Notes: a model not told the origin generated them from the letters alone. Numbered from the stretch's first letter, positions 55,117 through 64,000 are shown. The stretch: DNA of 64,000 bases from a bacterium (GCA_035945995.1 DASYZR010000153.1:22330-86329); one strand, 5' to 3'. Made by a program: numbers and translations.

Positions 55117-58100
55117 TCAGGATGCGAGAACTTGTTTCGCCCGTTCAATGAACACCGCGGCGTACTTCAAGGCGACTCCAGCGTCCTTCAGCACCCGTCC
55201 CACCTGCTCTGCGGTGGCTGCAGCCAGTCTTTCGACTGAATCAATCCCCGCAGCCGCCAGGAGGGCGCGTCTCCTCGGACCGAGACCGCTGATAGAGGCG
55301 AGTGATTCGCCCTTGGCGATGGGCGGTTGAGGCGTGGAGGCCGAGGGTCCCTCCGCCGGGTCATCGTCCGGGGCAAATGGGTTGGCCACTCCGGGCCGGC
55401 GGCTGGCGGTCGTCCTCAGAATTTCGCGCGCTCTTTCGATGAACACGGCGGCATTCTTAGGCGACACGCCCGTGAGCGCCTGCGCCACCTTCGCCGGGCT
55501 CGACGCCGCCAACTCTGCGACCGACGTGATGCCGGCTTTTGTCAGTTGGCGCATGCGTCCTTTGCCGATACCGAGGATCGCCGCAAGGGAAGGGATGACG
55601 ACCGCCTCCGGACGCTCGGGGGTCGCCCCGGGCACCCGCGTGGCGATGGGAAGCCTCCGCACCGCCACGGAGGGGGCGCCCGCAGCTACCACCCCACCGC
55701 CCCGCACCATTTCGGCCCCGCAGTTCGCGCATCGCCCCTGTACGGCCGGCCGGCCTGCCGCGGTGACCGCGGCGGCGGCTTGGGTCAGCGTTTGCTCGTT
55801 CTGACAGCATGGGCAGAAACATGAGTCGCCCACCGGCTCGCCAGGCCTGCGGCCCGGCGGCGTGGGTGTACAAAGGCCCTTCGAGGCAAGAATCCGCCCG
55901 CCGGACACTTCGTCATAGACCACCCGCGCCTCGGTCACGCGGAGTTCACCGGGCGCCTGCGCAACGAACGACAACGGAATTGAAGGCGAGTCCTGAGCCT
56001 GAAACGAGATCTCATTGACCATGAGGGCCGTTCCAGCCGGTAGGACGACGTGAACTCCCGCCTGCGCCGTTCCATCCGGCGTCACCCCGCTGGCCGCGTG
56101 TTCGTCAAAGTTCTCGGGAGCAACCGGGAGGTTTAGCGGTGCTCCAATTTCTGAGCCGTCCGCGGCAAGCCAGTGAAGGTCGATGCTCGGATGGTTCTCG
56201 GCTGAAATCAGGGGTACGGCCCGTCCTTCGAACCGCAAGACAAAGGCCTTGCCGGGAACCACGTTGACAACCTGCGCCAGTTCGGCGCTCGCGCCGGCAG
56301 GGTTCTTGATCACTCTGGCGCCGGCCGAGGCTGTGACCACGATCTGGGAAGAGGCCTGCGCCGGCGGGGTCCATTGCGCAAAGCCGCCGTGTTCATCAAG
56401 GATCTGTAGGTCGCCGTTTGCCAGGCTCTCCGAGGTTGCCGTTAGGGAGGCGTTGGCAATCCCGGCGATGACGCCCGGCGGAGCGCTGAAGCGCACTTCG
56501 GCTTGCGCGGCGCCGGGGGGCGCACTAAGCTGAGCGCGATGAAGAACGAGACGCTGTTGGCGTTCGGACTGCCGGACGGCCTGGATGGGCACCTGGTCCG
56601 TTCGAGTCGCCTCGCAATCCTGTCCCAGCCAGAACACCTCGGCGACGGCGCCTGTCTCCATGGCCAGTCCCCGGAAGCTAATCGTGTAGTTGCATGAGGC
56701 GGCGATCGGAATCACCTGCGAAAGCGCGGTCGCGGCTACATTGGCTTCAAAGTCCTGACGCGTGCGATGGCCGAACACCACCGCCAGACCCGGCGGGGGA
56801 AGCTCGGGCAGACAGACTGGGAGAACCTGCCCGGAGGTCAAGAACCACTCTGCCGGCACGCGAACACCGATTGGGATGAACGCTACTTGGGGAGCGTCAT
56901 GGGCGGCGATGCCCGCAATCTCGGCGGTTGCGGCTGCGGGTATGACGTATACCCGATCACCCTGGGGTGTGATCGCGATCGCCGAGGGAGCAACCGTCAA
57001 TGGTTTGGGAGTACCCGAGACGGCGCGGCGGTCCAGATCGACGACCGTAACCGCGTTCGCCGTTCCGGAGGCCATCTGACCGGTCGCTACGAAGGCCCGC
57101 CGTCCGTCCGGCGAGACGGCAACGCCCGCCGGTTGCCCCCCAAGCTTGATCGTCGATCCCTGGCGGCTTGCCGTCTCGACGACGCTAAGGGTGTTGTCGG
57201 CGGTGTTGCCGACGATCGCCAAGCTTCCGTCCGGCGTCAGGGCAATTGCCGCCGGGGTCGCTCCTACCGCAATGTCGACATGCTGCCGCGTGGCGGTATC
57301 CACCGCGGCCACGCTGTTGCGCCCAGGCACGGTCGCGTAAAGGCGGCTCCCGTCGTGGGTCACCGCGATTGCCCTCGCCGGCGAGCCGACGTCTACTATC
57401 ACGACGTCTGCGGGAGCCAGCGTCGCCTGGCCAACCACGGCCTGCTCGAGCCTCGTCGTGTCAAGGCCGACGATCGTGGAGCCGACGGTCGTCGCGTACA
57501 GCCGGCTGCCATCCGGGCTGAGCGCGAGACCCGTCCCGAAGCCTCCGCCGGTAGAATCTATCTTCAAGGCGTCGATCGCGCTCCAGGGCAGCACACCTAG
57601 TTCGGCCCGGGTTGTCGCATCGATGACATCGAGATTGGTATGCCCGAGGACGTACGCCCGGCTGCCGTCGGGATGGACCGCAACGGCCTGGGGAGTGTCG
57701 TGCTTTTCCTGCAGGTTCTTGAGTTGTACTGAGATCTTGAATTCATCACAGATGACGTCGACGATGCTGAGCAGCGGAAGTGTCTCATCGAGAATACCCG
57801 GCACATAGACCCACCGGCCGTCGGGCGCCGCGGCCACCGCGACCGGACTTGCGGCCAAGCGAATAAAGCCGGCATCCCCCGGCTCGTTGCCGACCACGTT
57901 CCACTGCCCAAAATCTCCGTTGGCGAGCTGCTCACCCTCCGGGCATGCGGCCGGGAGCGCCGCCGACGAATACCGATTGAAAGCGCCGGCTAGATCGGAA
58001 GAGTCGATCGCGAAATCCACGCGGCCGAGCGGCTGGTAGCGGTCGAGCTTGACGCGCACGGCCTGACTGCCGGCGCCTACCTCGAGCTCGACCGGCACCT

Positions 58101-63600: not shown

Positions 63601-64000
63601 CTTGCCGAGGGCGTCGTTGACGGATTTCTGGATATCGGCCAACGTGGCATGGGCGGGATCGGCGGCGGCCTTGGCCGTATCCACGTCAACCGGCGCGCCG
63701 CCGTCCACGGCGATCCGCATGAACCGGACCGTGCTGAGATCGATCCCGCCCGCGAGGGCCGGCGTGCCCACCACCCTGGCCGCTTTGGGATCGGCGCCCT
63801 GATACGTCCGGGGCGTCGCGATGCCGAAGAGGGTCCGGGTGGCGTCCGGCCCGGCCGGAGTTGAAAATTCGATGCGGCTGTTCGCGCCAACCGAGGGCGA
63901 GGTCAAGATCAGCCGCCTGCCGTCCGAAGTGGCAATGATCGCGCGCAGCGCCACGTTGACGGCGGTGACGATATCGTTCAGCCGGGTGTGCGCGGGGTCG
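60622..64000 (-). CDS. Giant repeat protein (over 1120 aa, N-terminus beyond the right edge) with about 80-aa tandem repeats and a C-terminal LamG / concanavalin-A-like (Laminin_G_3) lectin domain
   Basis: Repeats DPAH(A/T)xLxDI...DG..L.LTSP..G..S.L.I (DGRRLILTSPSVGANSRIEF / DGTHLILTSVAPGSAGRLDL / DGDHLRLTSPTSGGNSSLQI). The frame stays open upstream of the track M (really GTG) to the window edge. The C-terminal ...SAWMKPD...GRWIHVVGVADGERTYIYKNGV...GLAEIRVWNRSLSRAEI is typical of LamG_3. Confidence 0.6.
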   Translation of the reverse strand, partial: DPAHTRLNDIVTAVNVALRAIIATSDGRRLILTSPSVGANSRIEFSTPAGPDATRTLFGIATPRTYQGADPKAARVVGTPALAGGIDLSTVRFMRIAVDGGAPVDVDTAKAAADPAHATLADIQKSVNDALGKPVAGDDGTHLILTSVAPGSAGRLDLLAYTASDARQVLFGQVPDVTTGVDPAPAAITGVADLRAGVNLAERSTLALSVDGSRPVELDVAGAAPDRTFADEVVDRINAALPGVASVADGDHLRLTSPTSGGNSSLQIVPLRALELIEYPPASIDEPPRIVRHGDHWSVMNDGAADADLRVEISAPHGDAGPELVNLSAGVRVRVTVLIRPGERLRLRRGGDSHLSAEVVAADGGAAVVPGSRILAGPLGAQAHVPLRGSWHLVGGDASDWASLQLNNPDAPAIVILRARQRGAAGDQTAVDVVDAALAAGTGVPAPDGSRIRLTGKVLVDASGARLVDAAGALLCLLRPSAGATPGFYAGRPVVAEGPLFTGEGTPPVMVAERIARLFDVTFSGAAADGTAVVEAHSGVTIGTGTGTPDSLTWQVNSAPSQLVFGEEVDKGAALILPRGRSEWLYLNCDSARYDRGHFDQTRFAGGTCHERGIFDVSRFADAAPEVEAAVFAPAPPLTDPTVEVLFQWVRYRPGAFVVNLPADLPEAFGARFDEARFGLPGNTPETFPSAVLEPSVLGDPGGDPDYLVNRINDRINGSKLVTARFLNQPSPPLGWEPMVVPFRHPRARALTLGSRGAPARIYLAEQGVPGLIELSARQPGVWGNSIEVTARRAGPARYDVTVGYKAARFESARQIAFAGQITAPKDDPLPALIDAILRPQPVGILHAKAAGVRADVTRDRTDVEPTPGTVVGGGGAPGFPGTYLQFDGIRSYVEVPDSDKFSITATGALTVSAWMKPDTLKFPRTDGTGYVHWLGKGEGSGAQGTQEWAFRMYSRDNTEHRQNRISFYVFNPEGHEGVGSYFQDPITLGRWIHVVGVADGERTYIYKNGVFRKCDQYRGTGDGSCESHPPLVITPKRGDAPLRMGHRDGHGYFLGGLAEIRVWNRSLSRAEIAALYSSGVVPRAGLVAEYLLDEGQSTIAHDTVGRSDGTIFGAAWESTSQAND

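What the first reader, a model, noticed from the sequence alone, without database searches (positions are those of the whole stretch)
55117..64000. Operon of two giant repeat proteins (beta-propeller + tandem HhH; repeat array + LamG) flanking a low-GC gene: an uncharacterised system
Three co-directional minus-strand genes fill the right 9 kb. Giant protein 2 runs off the right edge and carries about 80-aa tandem repeats with a lectin-like LamG C-terminus. Giant protein 1 is 1447 aa and combines a YVTN beta-propeller, carbohydrate-binding-module-like sandwiches, a Cys-rich Zn-ribbon-like patch and two C-terminal helix-hairpin-helix domains. That is an unusual mix of lectin-like and DNA-binding-like modules in a protein with no signal peptide. 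Between them sits a 339-aa gene of unknown family. This architecture does not match any system I recognise. It could be a surface, adhesion or polymorphic module, or a large multidomain defence-type protein set. It is the least explained part of the window.
Basis: partly seen in the sequence, partly recalled or inferred. Interest (0 to 1): 0.7.

Follow-up and report, generated by a model that had tools for sequence, protein, structure and literature searches.

The report
Tail end of headless contractile-tail operon
The three odd genes are not a stand-alone system: they are the conserved last three genes of a phage-tail-like contractile "nano-syringe" gene cluster with no head genes, found in at least eight bacterial phyla, and they probably build its outer baseplate arms, one of which unusually ends in a DNA-binding-type tip.

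Summary
Three co-directional minus-strand genes fill 55117-64000: gpA (1447 aa), gpB (339 aa) and the C-terminal 1125 residues of gpC (1905 aa in full). One detail is wrong: the gpC repeats are about 115 aa long, not 80.

In near-identical contigs, the genes just upstream of gpC are gp27-like hub, gp5/VgrG-like spike, PAAR, gp25 sheath initiator and Baseplate_J. Further upstream in relatives lie sheath, tube, tail-assembly chaperone and a giant OmpA/peptidoglycan-binding protein. There are no capsid, portal or terminase genes and no Afp15-type ATPase.

The order J-gpC-gpB-gpA is kept in every sufficiently long locus I recovered, across at least eight phyla. None of the three proteins has a Pfam, NCBIfam, PHROG or PADLOC family of its own, and none has a match in 50,697 phage genomes apart from gpA's propeller.

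My best reading is that they form the peripheral baseplate of an undescribed tailocin/CIS-like lineage:
- gpC is an enlarged wedge partner with a fixed eight-repeat arm.
- gpB is a small adaptor or fibre-like protein.
- gpA is a distal arm with jelly-roll, propeller and a conserved terminal Zn-ribbon plus helix-hairpin-helix.

The function is inferred, not shown.

The parts
60622..64000 (-). gpC, C-terminal 1125 residues (781-1905) of a 1905-aa protein. It is encoded immediately after Baseplate_J, so it sits in the position of the baseplate wedge partner (Cis12/Afp12, Mu gp48, P2 gpI).
   Evidence: The frame is open to the window edge. The full length comes from contigs L001/L002, 99.6% identical in DNA and 99.2% in protein. 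The gene starts 1 nt after the Baseplate_J stop in L002. It is present upstream of gpB in all 30 loci found through gpB.
63169..63999 (-). The last about 2.5 of the 8.5 tandem repeats of about 115 aa in gpC (protein residues 781-1057).
   Evidence: A self-HMM finds copies at 98-210, 206-318, 315-430, 424-550, 546-675, 671-782, 781-898, 894-1010 and a partial copy at 1005-1057 (alignment A6). Eight full copies are kept in 24 of 28 homologues across phyla.
61405..63168 (-). Conserved non-repeat core of gpC (residues about 1058-1645). It includes a sheath-like 'GxWGN...FDVTV' segment.
   Evidence: tblastn alignments to homologues run to about residue 1645. The match of profile positions 1514-1565 to tail sheath 9ezm is weak and not significant, E 0.025.
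60778..61335 (-). Laminin_G_3 (concanavalin-like lectin) domain at the C-terminus of gpC. It is an add-on that the 24 homologues aligned in A5 lack.
   Evidence: Pfam PF13385, E 1e-16. Homologue alignments stop near residue 1645, and the length after the repeats varies from 331 to 848 aa.
59528..60547 (-). gpB, 339 aa. It has two N-terminal helices followed by an alpha/beta-sandwich domain, an invariant CHSPWF..CCG motif and a conserved C-terminal LLKV. It is a candidate small adaptor or fibre-like baseplate protein.
55117..59460 (-). gpA, 1447 aa, the last gene of the operon. It is a candidate distal baseplate arm.
   Evidence: At least 186 homologues at 34-61% identity, most covering about 93% of its length. 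It always follows gpB. The downstream genes differ between genomes.
58111..59460 (-). N-terminal double beta-sandwich of gpA (residues 1-450). This is the most conserved part and is always N-terminal, so it is the likely attachment module.
56866..57843 (-). YVTN-type beta-propeller of gpA (about residues 540-865).
   Evidence: TIGR02276, PF10282 and 1l0q_A, E 2e-28. Pfam detects no propeller in the variants L011, L022 and L029.
55876..56865 (-). Beta-rich middle region of gpA (about residues 866-1195).
   Evidence: It is conserved in the family alignment A4. It has no significant family or PDB hit.
55681..55875 (-). Cys-rich zinc-ribbon-like segment of gpA (about residues 1196-1260).
   Evidence: PF18930 DUF5679, E 0.0045. 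Four nearly invariant Cys columns in A4. The CxxC...CxxC pattern is in 114 of 120 homologues.
55426..55593 (-). Helix-hairpin-helix domain 1 of gpA (residues 1290-1345; hairpin sequence LGIGKG).
   Evidence: HHH_5, E 8.5e-12, and DUF4332, E 1.9e-10. A terminal HhH is present in 109 of 120 homologues.
55126..55308 (-). Helix-hairpin-helix domain 2 of gpA (residues 1385-1445; hairpin sequence SGLGPR). This second copy is found in only 7 of 120 homologues.
   Evidence: HHH_5 second stretch and TfoX_C; copy numbers.

Best explanation
The three genes are the last three genes of a roughly 30-kb operon for a contractile phage-tail-like particle with no head genes. The lineage is tailocin- or contractile-injection-system-like and has not been described.

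**Operon order, read from relatives.** A protein of about 360 aa, sheath, tube, tail-assembly chaperone, three small or medium proteins, a giant OmpA/peptidoglycan-binding protein, gp27-like hub, gp5/VgrG-like spike, PAAR, gp25 sheath initiator, Baseplate_J, gpC, gpB, gpA.

**Proposed mechanism (inferred).**
- gpC is the wedge partner of Baseplate_J. A short conserved N-terminus docks it to the wedge. A fixed array of eight 115-aa modules forms a rigid arm or cage of defined length. Its variable end, here a LamG lectin domain, faces outward.
- gpB is a small, probably trimeric, adaptor or short fibre.
- gpA attaches to the baseplate periphery through its conserved N-terminal double jelly-roll. 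It carries an exchangeable middle module, here a 7-bladed propeller with beta-sandwiches that is probably glycan-binding. It ends in a conserved zinc-ribbon plus helix-hairpin-helix tip that binds DNA or another polyanion.
- Together the three proteins would position the particle on its target or substrate and pass the trigger for sheath contraction to the baseplate.

**What is shown and what is inferred.** Shown: the gene context, the conservation, the domain content and the absence of head genes. Inferred: the structural roles, the stoichiometry, the ligands and the triggering.
For: **Context**
- In contigs 99.6-99.85% identical to the window, gpC is preceded by gp27-like, Phage_base_V, PAAR, Sheath_initiator/gp25 and Baseplate_J.
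- In two relatives with full synteny (L049, L051), sheath, tube-like, Phage_TAC_7 and an OmpA+PG_binding giant protein lie upstream.
- Upstream of the sheath are only unrelated host genes or regulators. No capsid, portal or terminase gene and no Afp15-type ATPase is seen.

**Conservation**
- All 30 loci found through a gpB motif have gpC directly upstream. All 29 whose contig continues past gpB have gpA directly downstream. They come from Acidobacteriota, Chloroflexota, Cyanobacteria, Actinomycetota, Gemmatimonadota, Proteobacteria and Vulcanimicrobiota.
- The same order is seen around three gpA homologues of 34-40% identity. A gpA homologue is also named from Methylomirabilis.
- The genes downstream of gpA differ in every genome, so gpA ends the unit.

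**Structural rather than cargo character**
- gpA is conserved over most of its length in most homologues.
- Its N-terminal domain is always N-terminal and resembles phage baseplate and tail-spike domains.
- The gpC repeat number is fixed at 8.
- The first ~100 residues of gpC align with the shorter protein that follows Baseplate_J in a distant relative, L040.
- Synonymous to nonsynonymous changes between strains are 19:9 in gpA, 3:0 in gpB and 19:18 in gpC.
- None of the three has a signal peptide, as expected for parts assembled in the cytoplasm.

**The terminal tip**
- The Zn-ribbon (114 of 120) and the terminal HhH (109 of 120, median 2 residues from the C-terminus) are kept even where the middle module is replaced.
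Against: - gpC was not modelled.
- The NCBIfam CIS12_fam hit falls on gpA's HhH, not on gpC.
- The upstream genes come from near-identical or related contigs, not from the window itself.
- No particle, expression or binding data exist.
- Cys4 zinc ribbons and HhH domains are typical of cytoplasmic DNA-binding proteins. That fits an extracellular receptor-binding role poorly.
- Real tailocin fibres vary greatly between strains, whereas these proteins are conserved across phyla.
Confidence: 0.6

Rival explanations
1. The machine is the same, but it works inside the producer cell. gpA and gpC are anchors rather than target binders. The zinc-ribbon/HhH tip of gpA would tether the baseplate to the cell's own DNA or nucleoid, or to another cytoplasmic polyanion. 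The particle would fire from within, for example to cause regulated cell death or to act on neighbours after lysis. This would parallel the Streptomyces cytoplasmic CIS and the thylakoid-anchored CIS of Anabaena.
For: - HhH and Cys4 zinc-ribbon are cytoplasmic, DNA-binding-type modules, and they are conserved at the extreme C-terminus.
- No holin or endolysin was recognised in the parts of the cluster I could read.
- The peripheral proteins are conserved across phyla, unlike receptor-binding fibres.
- There is precedent: baseplate and fibre extensions anchor the tCIS (PMC8894136), and the gene downstream of the baseplate genes (CisA) mediates membrane association in Streptomyces (PMC12237407).
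- Several carriers are filamentous: Frankia, Ktedonobacteraceae, Leptolyngbyaceae and Anaerolineae.
Against: - LamG, CBM-like jelly rolls and a YVTN propeller are typical of extracellular glycan or surface binding.
- The cluster also encodes an OmpA/PG_binding protein, which points to the cell envelope.
- Many carriers are unicellular.
- Nothing here tests localisation.
Confidence: 0.22
2. gpA, possibly with gpB, is not a structural part. It is cargo or an effector encoded at the 3' end of the operon, as in Afp and PVC clusters.
For: - It is the last gene of the operon, where eCIS toxins usually sit (established knowledge of Afp17/18 and PVC payload regions).
- It is large and multidomain, and DNA-binding-type domains could act in a target cell.
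Against: - No toxin or enzymatic domain was found.
- A 1447-aa propeller-containing protein is too bulky for the tube lumen (inference).
- It is conserved over most of its length in most homologues across phyla and has an invariant N-terminal domain, whereas CIS payloads differ between loci.
- Its N-terminal domain resembles phage baseplate and tail-spike domains.
Confidence: 0.07
3. The cluster is a decaying prophage remnant and the three genes are former tail-fibre genes with no present function.
For: - The gene order resembles a Mu- or P2-type myophage tail module.
- GC3 is lower than in the flanking genes, which suggests horizontal acquisition.
- Transposases lie next to some copies.
Against: - Long ORFs are intact in dozens of genomes from at least eight phyla, in identical order.
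- Synonymous changes outnumber nonsynonymous ones in gpA and gpB.
- Sheaths are 55-82% identical across the lineage but only 28% identical, over a quarter of their length, to any of 50,697 phage genomes.
- gpB and gpC are absent from those phages.
Confidence: 0.06
4. One reading: an independent surface/adhesin, polymorphic or defence-type three-gene system unrelated to its neighbours.
For: Lectin-like and repeat domains are present, and none of the three proteins has a named family of its own.
Against: - None has a signal peptide.
- There were no PADLOC hits.
- The triad is always fused to a contractile-tail baseplate gene set.
- There is no hypervariable region, and the repeat number is fixed.
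Confidence: 0.03

Closest known systems
R-type tailocins (R2 pyocin of Pseudomonas aeruginosa, diffocin of Clostridioides difficile)
   Same: - It is a contractile tail gene cluster in a bacterial chromosome with no head genes.
- It has a phage-type tail-assembly chaperone and no Afp15-type ATPase.
- The nearest solved relative of its Baseplate_J is the diffocin triplex protein CD1371 (8v3w, E 9e-6).
- The weak fold hits for gpB include R1 and R2 pyocin fibre domains.
   Different: - No lysis cassette was recognised.
- The post-baseplate proteins have no sequence relation to pyocin or diffocin fibres. They are conserved across phyla rather than strain-variable.
- The cluster has a giant OmpA/PG-binding protein and a PAAR protein.
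- gpA ends in a Zn-ribbon and HhH.
- The cluster occurs in both Gram-positive and Gram-negative phyla.
Extracellular contractile injection systems of the Afp/PVC/AlgoCIS superfamily (Chen et al. 2019, PMC6899500)
   Same: - It shares sheath, tube, VgrG-like spike, PAAR, gp25 and Baseplate_J.
- A large protein follows Baseplate_J, in the Afp12/Cis12 position, and a small protein follows that, in the Afp13/Cis13 position.
- There are no head genes.
   Different: - Two of the eight defining subunits, the Afp15 AAA+ ATPase and the Afp16 terminator, were not found within 10 kb of either end.
- No NCBIfam CIS family hits any structural protein.
- The gene order is Mu- or P2-like (sheath, tube, chaperone first), not Afp-like.
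Anchored or cytoplasmic CIS: Anabaena thylakoid CIS (Cis12 extension, Cis13 transmembrane fibre, Cis19 crown) and Streptomyces CIS-Sc with CisA
   Same: Lineage-specific enlargements of the protein after Baseplate_J, and of the genes just downstream, decide where the machine is positioned (PMC8894136; PMC12237407). gpC, gpB and gpA occupy exactly these positions.
   Different: - No transmembrane helix is present in gpA, gpB or gpC.
- No sequence similarity was detected.
- The only link is a weak CIS12_fam match (E 5e-6, far below its cut-off) confined to the gpA HhH.
- The tip here is DNA-binding-type, not membrane-binding.
Tail module of Mu-like and P2-like myophages
   Same: The gene order matches: sheath, tube, chaperone, (tape measure), a DNA_circ_N-like protein, hub, spike, gp25/W, J, a post-J protein, then fibre.
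   Different: - Head and replication genes are absent.
- Even the sheath is only remotely similar to those of sequenced phages.
- The post-J protein is expanded from a few hundred residues (L040, 362 aa) to 1400-1900 aa.

Membership tests
eCIS superfamily (Afp-like; Chen et al. 2019) | Sheath (Afp2-4), tube (Afp1/5), VgrG-like spike (Afp8), gp25-like (Afp9) and Baseplate_J (Afp11) in one locus | tested here: met
   Pfam hits were found in L002 and in L049, L055, L056 and L057: Phage_sheath_1/1C, DUF2001 (weak), Phage_base_V, Sheath_initiator and Baseplate_J. These genes are in near-identical or related contigs, outside the window.
eCIS superfamily (Afp-like; Chen et al. 2019) | Afp15-type AAA+ ATPase in the locus | tested here: not met
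   No AAA+ ATPase lies between the sheath and gpA, within 10 kb upstream of the sheath, or within 10 kb downstream of gpA. The one exception is a sigma-54 activator-type regulator in L056. An ATPase encoded further away cannot be excluded.
eCIS superfamily (Afp-like; Chen et al. 2019) | Afp16-type tail terminator/cap | tested here: inconclusive
   There was no Pfam or NCBIfam hit. The unassigned protein of about 300-367 aa just upstream of the sheath could play this role.
R-type tailocin (phage-tail-like bacteriocin) | Contractile tail genes without capsid, portal or terminase genes, embedded among host genes | tested here: met
   Host or regulatory genes flank the sheath end (Mla and ppk genes, PKS genes, transposases). 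Unrelated host genes follow gpA.
R-type tailocin (phage-tail-like bacteriocin) | Dedicated lysis cassette (holin/endolysin) for release | tested here: inconclusive
   No lysis gene was recognised. Several small ORFs remain unassigned, and the OmpA/PG_binding_1 giant protein only binds peptidoglycan by annotation.
R-type tailocin (phage-tail-like bacteriocin) | Strain-variable tail fibre or receptor-binding protein that sets a narrow killing spectrum | tested here: not met
   gpB and gpA are conserved at 34-60% identity across phyla. There is no hypervariable segment between strains.
Cis12/Afp12 baseplate wedge protein (assignment of gpC) | Encoded directly after Baseplate_J | tested here: met
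   The gene starts 1 nt after the Baseplate_J stop in L002. It holds the same position in all loci.
Cis12/Afp12 baseplate wedge protein (assignment of gpC) | Sequence or profile similarity to known Cis12/Afp12/gp7-type proteins | tested here: not met
   gpC has no NCBIfam hit (CIS12_fam included) and, in Pfam, only its Laminin_G_3 domain. No solved baseplate protein matched either the sequence or the family profile.
Cis12/Afp12 baseplate wedge protein (assignment of gpC) | Forms the wedge heterocomplex with Baseplate_J in the particle | not testable with these tools
   This needs complex prediction or cryo-EM.
Tail fibre (Afp13/Cis13-type) (assignment of gpB) | Fibre-like fold or homology to known fibres | tested here: inconclusive
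YVTN beta-propeller and helix-hairpin-helix (HHH_5/DUF4332) domain families (gpA) | Profile match above the curated threshold | tested here: met
   TIGR02276 scored 42.9 bits against a cut-off of 27.85. HHH_5 scored 45.8 against 27. DUF4332 scored 41.4 against 23.2. The GIG and GLG hairpins are visible in the sequence.
Diversity-generating retroelement target or polymorphic cassette system | Localised hypervariability between close strains, or a variable repeat number | tested here: not met
   Between 12 and 67 differences are scattered over 5-10 kb in six strains. The only cluster is a 12-nt indel. The repeat number is fixed at 8.
Known anti-phage defence systems (PADLOC) | Match to a defence-system protein model | tested here: not met
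   There were no hits for gpA, gpB or gpC.
Secreted adhesin or S-layer protein | N-terminal signal peptide or other export signal | tested here: not met
   No hydrophobic N-terminal segment was found by hydropathy scan and inspection. No dedicated predictor was available.

The most novel reading that the evidence does not exclude
This is a pan-phylum, headless contractile machine of a lineage separate from both Afp-type eCIS and known tailocins. Its baseplate arms end in zinc-ribbon/helix-hairpin-helix DNA-binding tips. The particle would therefore be positioned or triggered by DNA, either the producer's nucleoid or extracellular DNA in biofilm or soil matrix. That would be a mode of CIS anchoring or targeting not described before.
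Probability: 0.2. Interest if true: 0.8.

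Novelty: new variant of a known kind. Interest (0 to 1): 0.55.

Why it matters
How a contractile injection system works depends on how its baseplate is anchored and triggered. Four modes are known: T6SS, released eCIS and tailocins, the thylakoid-anchored CIS, and the Streptomyces cytoplasmic CIS.

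This lineage differs in four ways:
- It is widespread in soil and sediment phyla that are rarely studied: Acidobacteriota, Chloroflexota, Actinomycetota, Gemmatimonadota and Cyanobacteria.
- It lacks the ATPase that eCIS surveys use as one of their conserved core markers, so such surveys could miss it.
- Its three peripheral proteins have no counterpart in any solved system.
- One of them has a conserved DNA-binding-type tip.

If the structural role holds, it gives a new baseplate periphery to study. It may reveal a new anchoring principle and a new scaffold for engineering targeting. Cultured carriers exist, among them Cellulomonas massiliensis JC225 and Actinopolymorpha alba DSM 45243, so the hypothesis can be tested directly.

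Tried and rejected
**Searches that found nothing useful**
- Pfam, NCBIfam, PHROGs and PADLOC gave no family for gpB, and only the add-on domains for gpA and gpC.
- Sequence and profile searches of the PDB for gpA, gpB, gpC and the gpC repeat unit gave only the propeller and chance-level hits.
- tblastn against 50,697 phage genomes found nothing for gpB or gpC.
- Foldseek of the gpB model against viral predicted structures found nothing significant.
- A scan of IMG/VR with the hub protein gave only two distant loci.
- Literature searches combining CIS with HhH, DUF4332, YVTN, LamG, or with the carrier taxa, found no description of this lineage.
- An exact look-up of gpA, meant to read the window's own contig beyond base 64000, failed. 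The upstream context therefore rests on 99.6-99.85% identical contigs.

**Ideas rejected**
- A diversity-generating or cassette system.
- A defence system.
- A secreted adhesin.
- An intact prophage.
- A canonical Afp-type eCIS, because no Afp15 or Afp16 was found and no CIS NCBIfam hits appeared.

**Not pursued**
- The weak CIS12_fam hit is confined to the HhH of gpA and says nothing about gpC.
- The promoter and terminator scan found no internal signals.

Full report
**1. What is in the window**

- The right 9 kb holds three co-directional minus-strand reading frames.
  - gpA runs 55117-59460 (1447 aa).
  - gpB runs 59528-60547 (339 aa from the ATG that follows a GGAGAGG ribosome-binding site).
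  - gpC runs from 60622 and is still open at the window edge.
- The gaps between them are 67 and 74 nt. No promoter-like site and no terminator-like site above chance lies in them. I infer that they are co-transcribed.
- GC3 is 0.73-0.79 in these genes against 0.86-0.92 in the neighbouring genes. gpB lies in the lowest-GC stretch, 0.58-0.59. This suggests a horizontally acquired island.
- Downstream of gpA (at lower coordinates) are convergent housekeeping genes, among them O6-methylguanine methyltransferase, a PEP-mutase family protein, an amidohydrolase and solute-binding proteins. gpA is therefore the last gene of the unit.
- The window comes from an NCBI metagenome-assembled genome labelled only 'bacterium'. 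There gpA is called 'helix-hairpin-helix domain-containing protein' and gpB 'hypothetical protein'.

**2. Check of the domain claims**

- gpA has a YVTN/lactonase-type beta-propeller at about 570-860 (TIGR02276; 1l0q_A, E 2e-28).
- It has two HHH_5/DUF4332 helix-hairpin-helix stretches and a weak DUF5679 zinc-ribbon match.
- gpC has Laminin_G_3 at its C-terminus, and gpB has no family.
- None of the three has a signal-like N-terminus or a clear membrane helix.
A self-profile finds 8 full copies and 1 partial copy of a unit of about 115 aa at residues 98-1057 of the full protein. Only about 2.5 copies are in the window.

**3. What lies beyond the edge**

- An exact look-up of gpB found six contigs that are 99.3-99.85% identical to the window in DNA.
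- In them gpC is 1905 aa.
- It is preceded, in order, by:
  - a gp27-like hub protein;
  - a Phage_base_V (gp5/VgrG-like) spike;
  - a 110-aa PAAR protein;
  - a gp25-type sheath initiator;
  - Baseplate_J, whose stop codon is 1 nt before the gpC start.
- The 'triad' is therefore the distal end of a contractile-tail baseplate operon.

**4. The whole cluster, read from relatives**

- Two metagenome loci with full synteny (L049, L051) and three loci reached through sheath homologues (L055-L057) show the upstream part.
- The upstream order is:
  - an unassigned protein of 300-367 aa;
  - a 553-569-aa sheath;
  - a tube-like protein (DUF2001, weak);
  - a Phage_TAC_7 tail-assembly chaperone;
  - three unassigned proteins, one with a weak DNA_circ_N match;
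  - a giant protein (623-1835 aa) with OmpA and PG_binding_1 domains;
  - then the hub.
- The order resembles a Mu- or P2-type tail module.
- Upstream of the sheath are unrelated genes. In Geoalkalibacter halelectricus these are Mla and polyphosphate kinase genes; elsewhere they are polyketide genes or transposases. Some loci have a regulator there, a sigma-54 activator or a BTAD protein.
- No capsid, portal or terminase gene and no Afp15-type ATPase was seen within 10 kb of either end.
- Whether the Geoalkalibacter copy carries the triad was not checked.

**5. Conservation of the triad**

- gpA has at least 186 homologues at 34-61% identity, most covering about 93% of its length. The source names that give a taxon include Terriglobia, Pyrinomonadaceae, Methylomirabilis, Chloroflexi-type and Gammaproteobacteria MAGs.
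- gpB has 422 homologues, all hypothetical.
- A motif scan of one genome per species with the gpB alignment returned 30 loci. They come from Acidobacteriota, Chloroflexota, Cyanobacteria, Actinomycetota, Gemmatimonadota, Proteobacteria and Vulcanimicrobiota. The Actinomycetota include Cellulomonas massiliensis JC225, Actinopolymorpha alba DSM 45243, Frankia and Blastococcus.
- In all 30 loci gpC lies directly upstream. gpA lies directly downstream in all 29 whose contig continues. Wherever the contig reaches far enough, the full order hub-spike-PAAR-gp25-J-gpC-gpB-gpA is kept, except that PAAR was not detected by tblastn in two loci (L010, L013).
- The same holds around three gpA homologues of 34-40% identity, and the genes after gpA differ in each.
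- The answer to 'is the triad always together?' is yes, and it is always attached to the baseplate genes.

**6. Anatomy and variation of gpC**

- gpC has a conserved N-terminus of about 100 aa. This part aligns (E 2e-8) with the shorter 362-aa protein that follows Baseplate_J in a distant relative, L040.
- The repeat array follows. It has 8 full copies in 24 of 28 homologues from different phyla, so it is an ancient fixed-length structure and not a variable cassette.
- A conserved core follows, up to about residue 1645.
- A variable end of 331-848 aa comes last. The LamG domain there is absent from the 24 homologues aligned in A5.

**7. Anatomy and variation of gpA**

- The N-terminal ~520 residues are the universal core.
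  - They define 388 clusters (at 50% identity) among 1.84 billion representative proteins.
  - They always occupy residues 1-500 of proteins of about 350-1680 aa; the shortest may be fragments.
- In several loci only this part aligns. Pfam finds no propeller in L011, L022 and L029, yet these proteins still end in HHH_5.
- Across 120 homologues, 109 end in an HhH (median 2 residues from the C-terminus). 114 have CxxC...CxxC. Only 7 have the second HhH seen here.
- Four homologues listed (P0061, P0064, P0093, P0102) carry an extra glycosyltransferase-2 domain.

**8. Variation between strains**

- Differences between close strains are scattered, with no hot spot.
- Synonymous to nonsynonymous changes are 19:9 in gpA, 3:0 in gpB and 19:18 in gpC. 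This indicates purifying selection, weaker on gpC.

**9. Structure**

- With family alignments, AlphaFold2 gave confident models.
  - gpB has pLDDT 85. It has two N-terminal helices (19-42 and 61-79) followed by an alpha/beta domain.
  - gpA residues 1-540 have pLDDT 86.5 and form two beta-sandwiches.
- Foldseek of gpB against viral predicted structures found nothing significant.
- The fold evidence fits a peripheral tail-protein role for the gpA N-terminus. It is only suggestive for gpB. gpC was not modelled.

**10. Relation to known systems**

- *Afp/PVC-type eCIS.* This superfamily is defined by eight conserved subunits, including the Afp15 ATPase and the Afp16 terminator. The screen built on them excludes R-type bacteriocins and prophages (PMC6899500).
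  - Here neither Afp15 nor Afp16 was found.
  - No NCBIfam CIS family matched any structural protein.
  - A tail-assembly chaperone is present.
- *Tailocins and phages.*
  - The nearest solved relative of Baseplate_J is the diffocin protein CD1371.
  - In organisation the cluster is therefore nearer to R-type tailocins.
- *Differences from known tailocins.*
  - Sheaths are 55-82% identical within the lineage across phyla (over 1400 homologues at E <= 1e-30).
  - They match sequenced phages only at 28% identity over their last quarter.
  - The peripheral proteins are conserved rather than strain-variable.
  - No lysis cassette was recognised.
- *Literature.* I found no paper describing this lineage or its triad.
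- *Functional precedents.* The most useful ones are:
  - the Anabaena thylakoid CIS, where extensions of Cis12 and Cis13 anchor the machine (PMC8894136);
  - the Streptomyces CIS, where the gene just after the baseplate genes, CisA, is required for contraction and is proposed to link particles to the membrane (PMC12237407).
  - gpC, gpB and gpA sit in exactly these positions.

**11. Most likely mechanism and its rivals**

- I commit to this reading: gpC, gpB and gpA form the baseplate periphery.
  - gpC is an enlarged wedge partner whose fixed eight-module arm ends in a variable lectin-type domain.
  - gpB is a small adaptor or short fibre.
  - gpA is a distal arm. It is attached by its N-terminal double jelly-roll, carries an exchangeable binding module, and ends in a conserved zinc-ribbon/HhH tip that binds DNA or another polyanion.
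- The context, the conservation and the domain content are shown. The roles and the ligands are inferred.
- The main rival (about 0.2) keeps the same parts but places the machine inside the cell, tethered by the HhH tip. It is favoured by the cytoplasmic character of Cys4 zinc-ribbon and HhH domains and by the lack of recognised lysis genes. It is disfavoured by the lectin, CBM and propeller modules and by the OmpA/PG-binding protein.
- Cargo, prophage remnant and independent adhesin or defence readings are unlikely, for the reasons listed under the rivals.

**12. Verdict**

- This is a new variant of a known kind: a contractile phage-tail-like system.
- Three features are unusual: the breadth of distribution, the absence from phage databases, and a peripheral protein set with a DNA-binding-type tip.
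- I score interest at 0.55. It would be notable for CIS specialists and can be tested in cultured carriers, but no function has been demonstrated.

Noticed in passing
L057:15113-20071; L055:14813-20320; L049:5651-9865; L056:15141-17012: Every cluster of this lineage that I read encodes a giant protein (623-1835 aa) with OmpA-like and PG_binding_1 peptidoglycan-binding domains, between the tube/chaperone genes and the hub. It has no signal peptide in L057. It could be an unusual tape-measure or tip protein, or a cell-wall anchor.
   Followed up: partly
L056:7015-8361; L055:7408-8379: Regulator genes lie about 1.6 kb upstream of the sheath in two relatives: a sigma-54 activator-type AAA+ protein in one and a BTAD-domain protein in the other. 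They may control the cluster.
   Followed up: no
P0061, P0064, P0093, P0102 (gpA homologues, 1633-1757 aa): Some gpA homologues carry an extra glycosyltransferase family 2 domain (PF00535). This hints at a link between the arm protein and glycan chemistry.
   Followed up: no
window 61860-61871 (gpC): A 12-nt in-frame indel separates strain contig L003 from the window. It is the only clustered difference among six near-identical strains.
   Followed up: partly
window 54771-55151 (+) against the gpA 3' end at 55117: A convergent 126-aa ORF overlaps the last 35 nt of gpA. The corresponding gene in L003 and L004 is called a Cupin_2 protein.
   Followed up: partly
Geobacter sulfurreducens GSU0972-GSU0992 (Table 3 of PMC10599522): A Geobacter phage-tail-like cluster that does have an AAA ATPase lists a baseplate wedge protein (GSU0986), two hypothetical proteins, then an 'NHL repeat domain protein' (GSU0989) and a glycosyltransferase. 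This layout, J, two unknowns and a beta-propeller protein, recalls J-gpC-gpB-gpA. Homology was not tested.
   Followed up: no
gpC residues about 1514-1565 (window about 61645-61800): A segment 'GVPGLIELSARQPGVWGNSIEVTARRAGPARYDVTV' resembles the N-terminal domain of a tail sheath (9ezm, E 0.025, not significant). It may be a sheath-like interaction motif in a baseplate protein.
   Followed up: partly
L040 (IMG/VR contig IMGVR_UViG_3300045996_004455): This distant relative (27-36% identity in hub, spike, gp25 and J) has only a 362-aa protein after Baseplate_J. That protein shares the first ~100 residues of gpC. Its sheath and tube genes lie downstream in a different order. It may represent the unexpanded state of the lineage.
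   Followed up: partly
window 1-54000: The rest of the window looks like ordinary high-GC chromosomal genes, for example LarC at 45290-46534, an EamA transporter and solute-binding proteins. It was not examined further.
   Followed up: no
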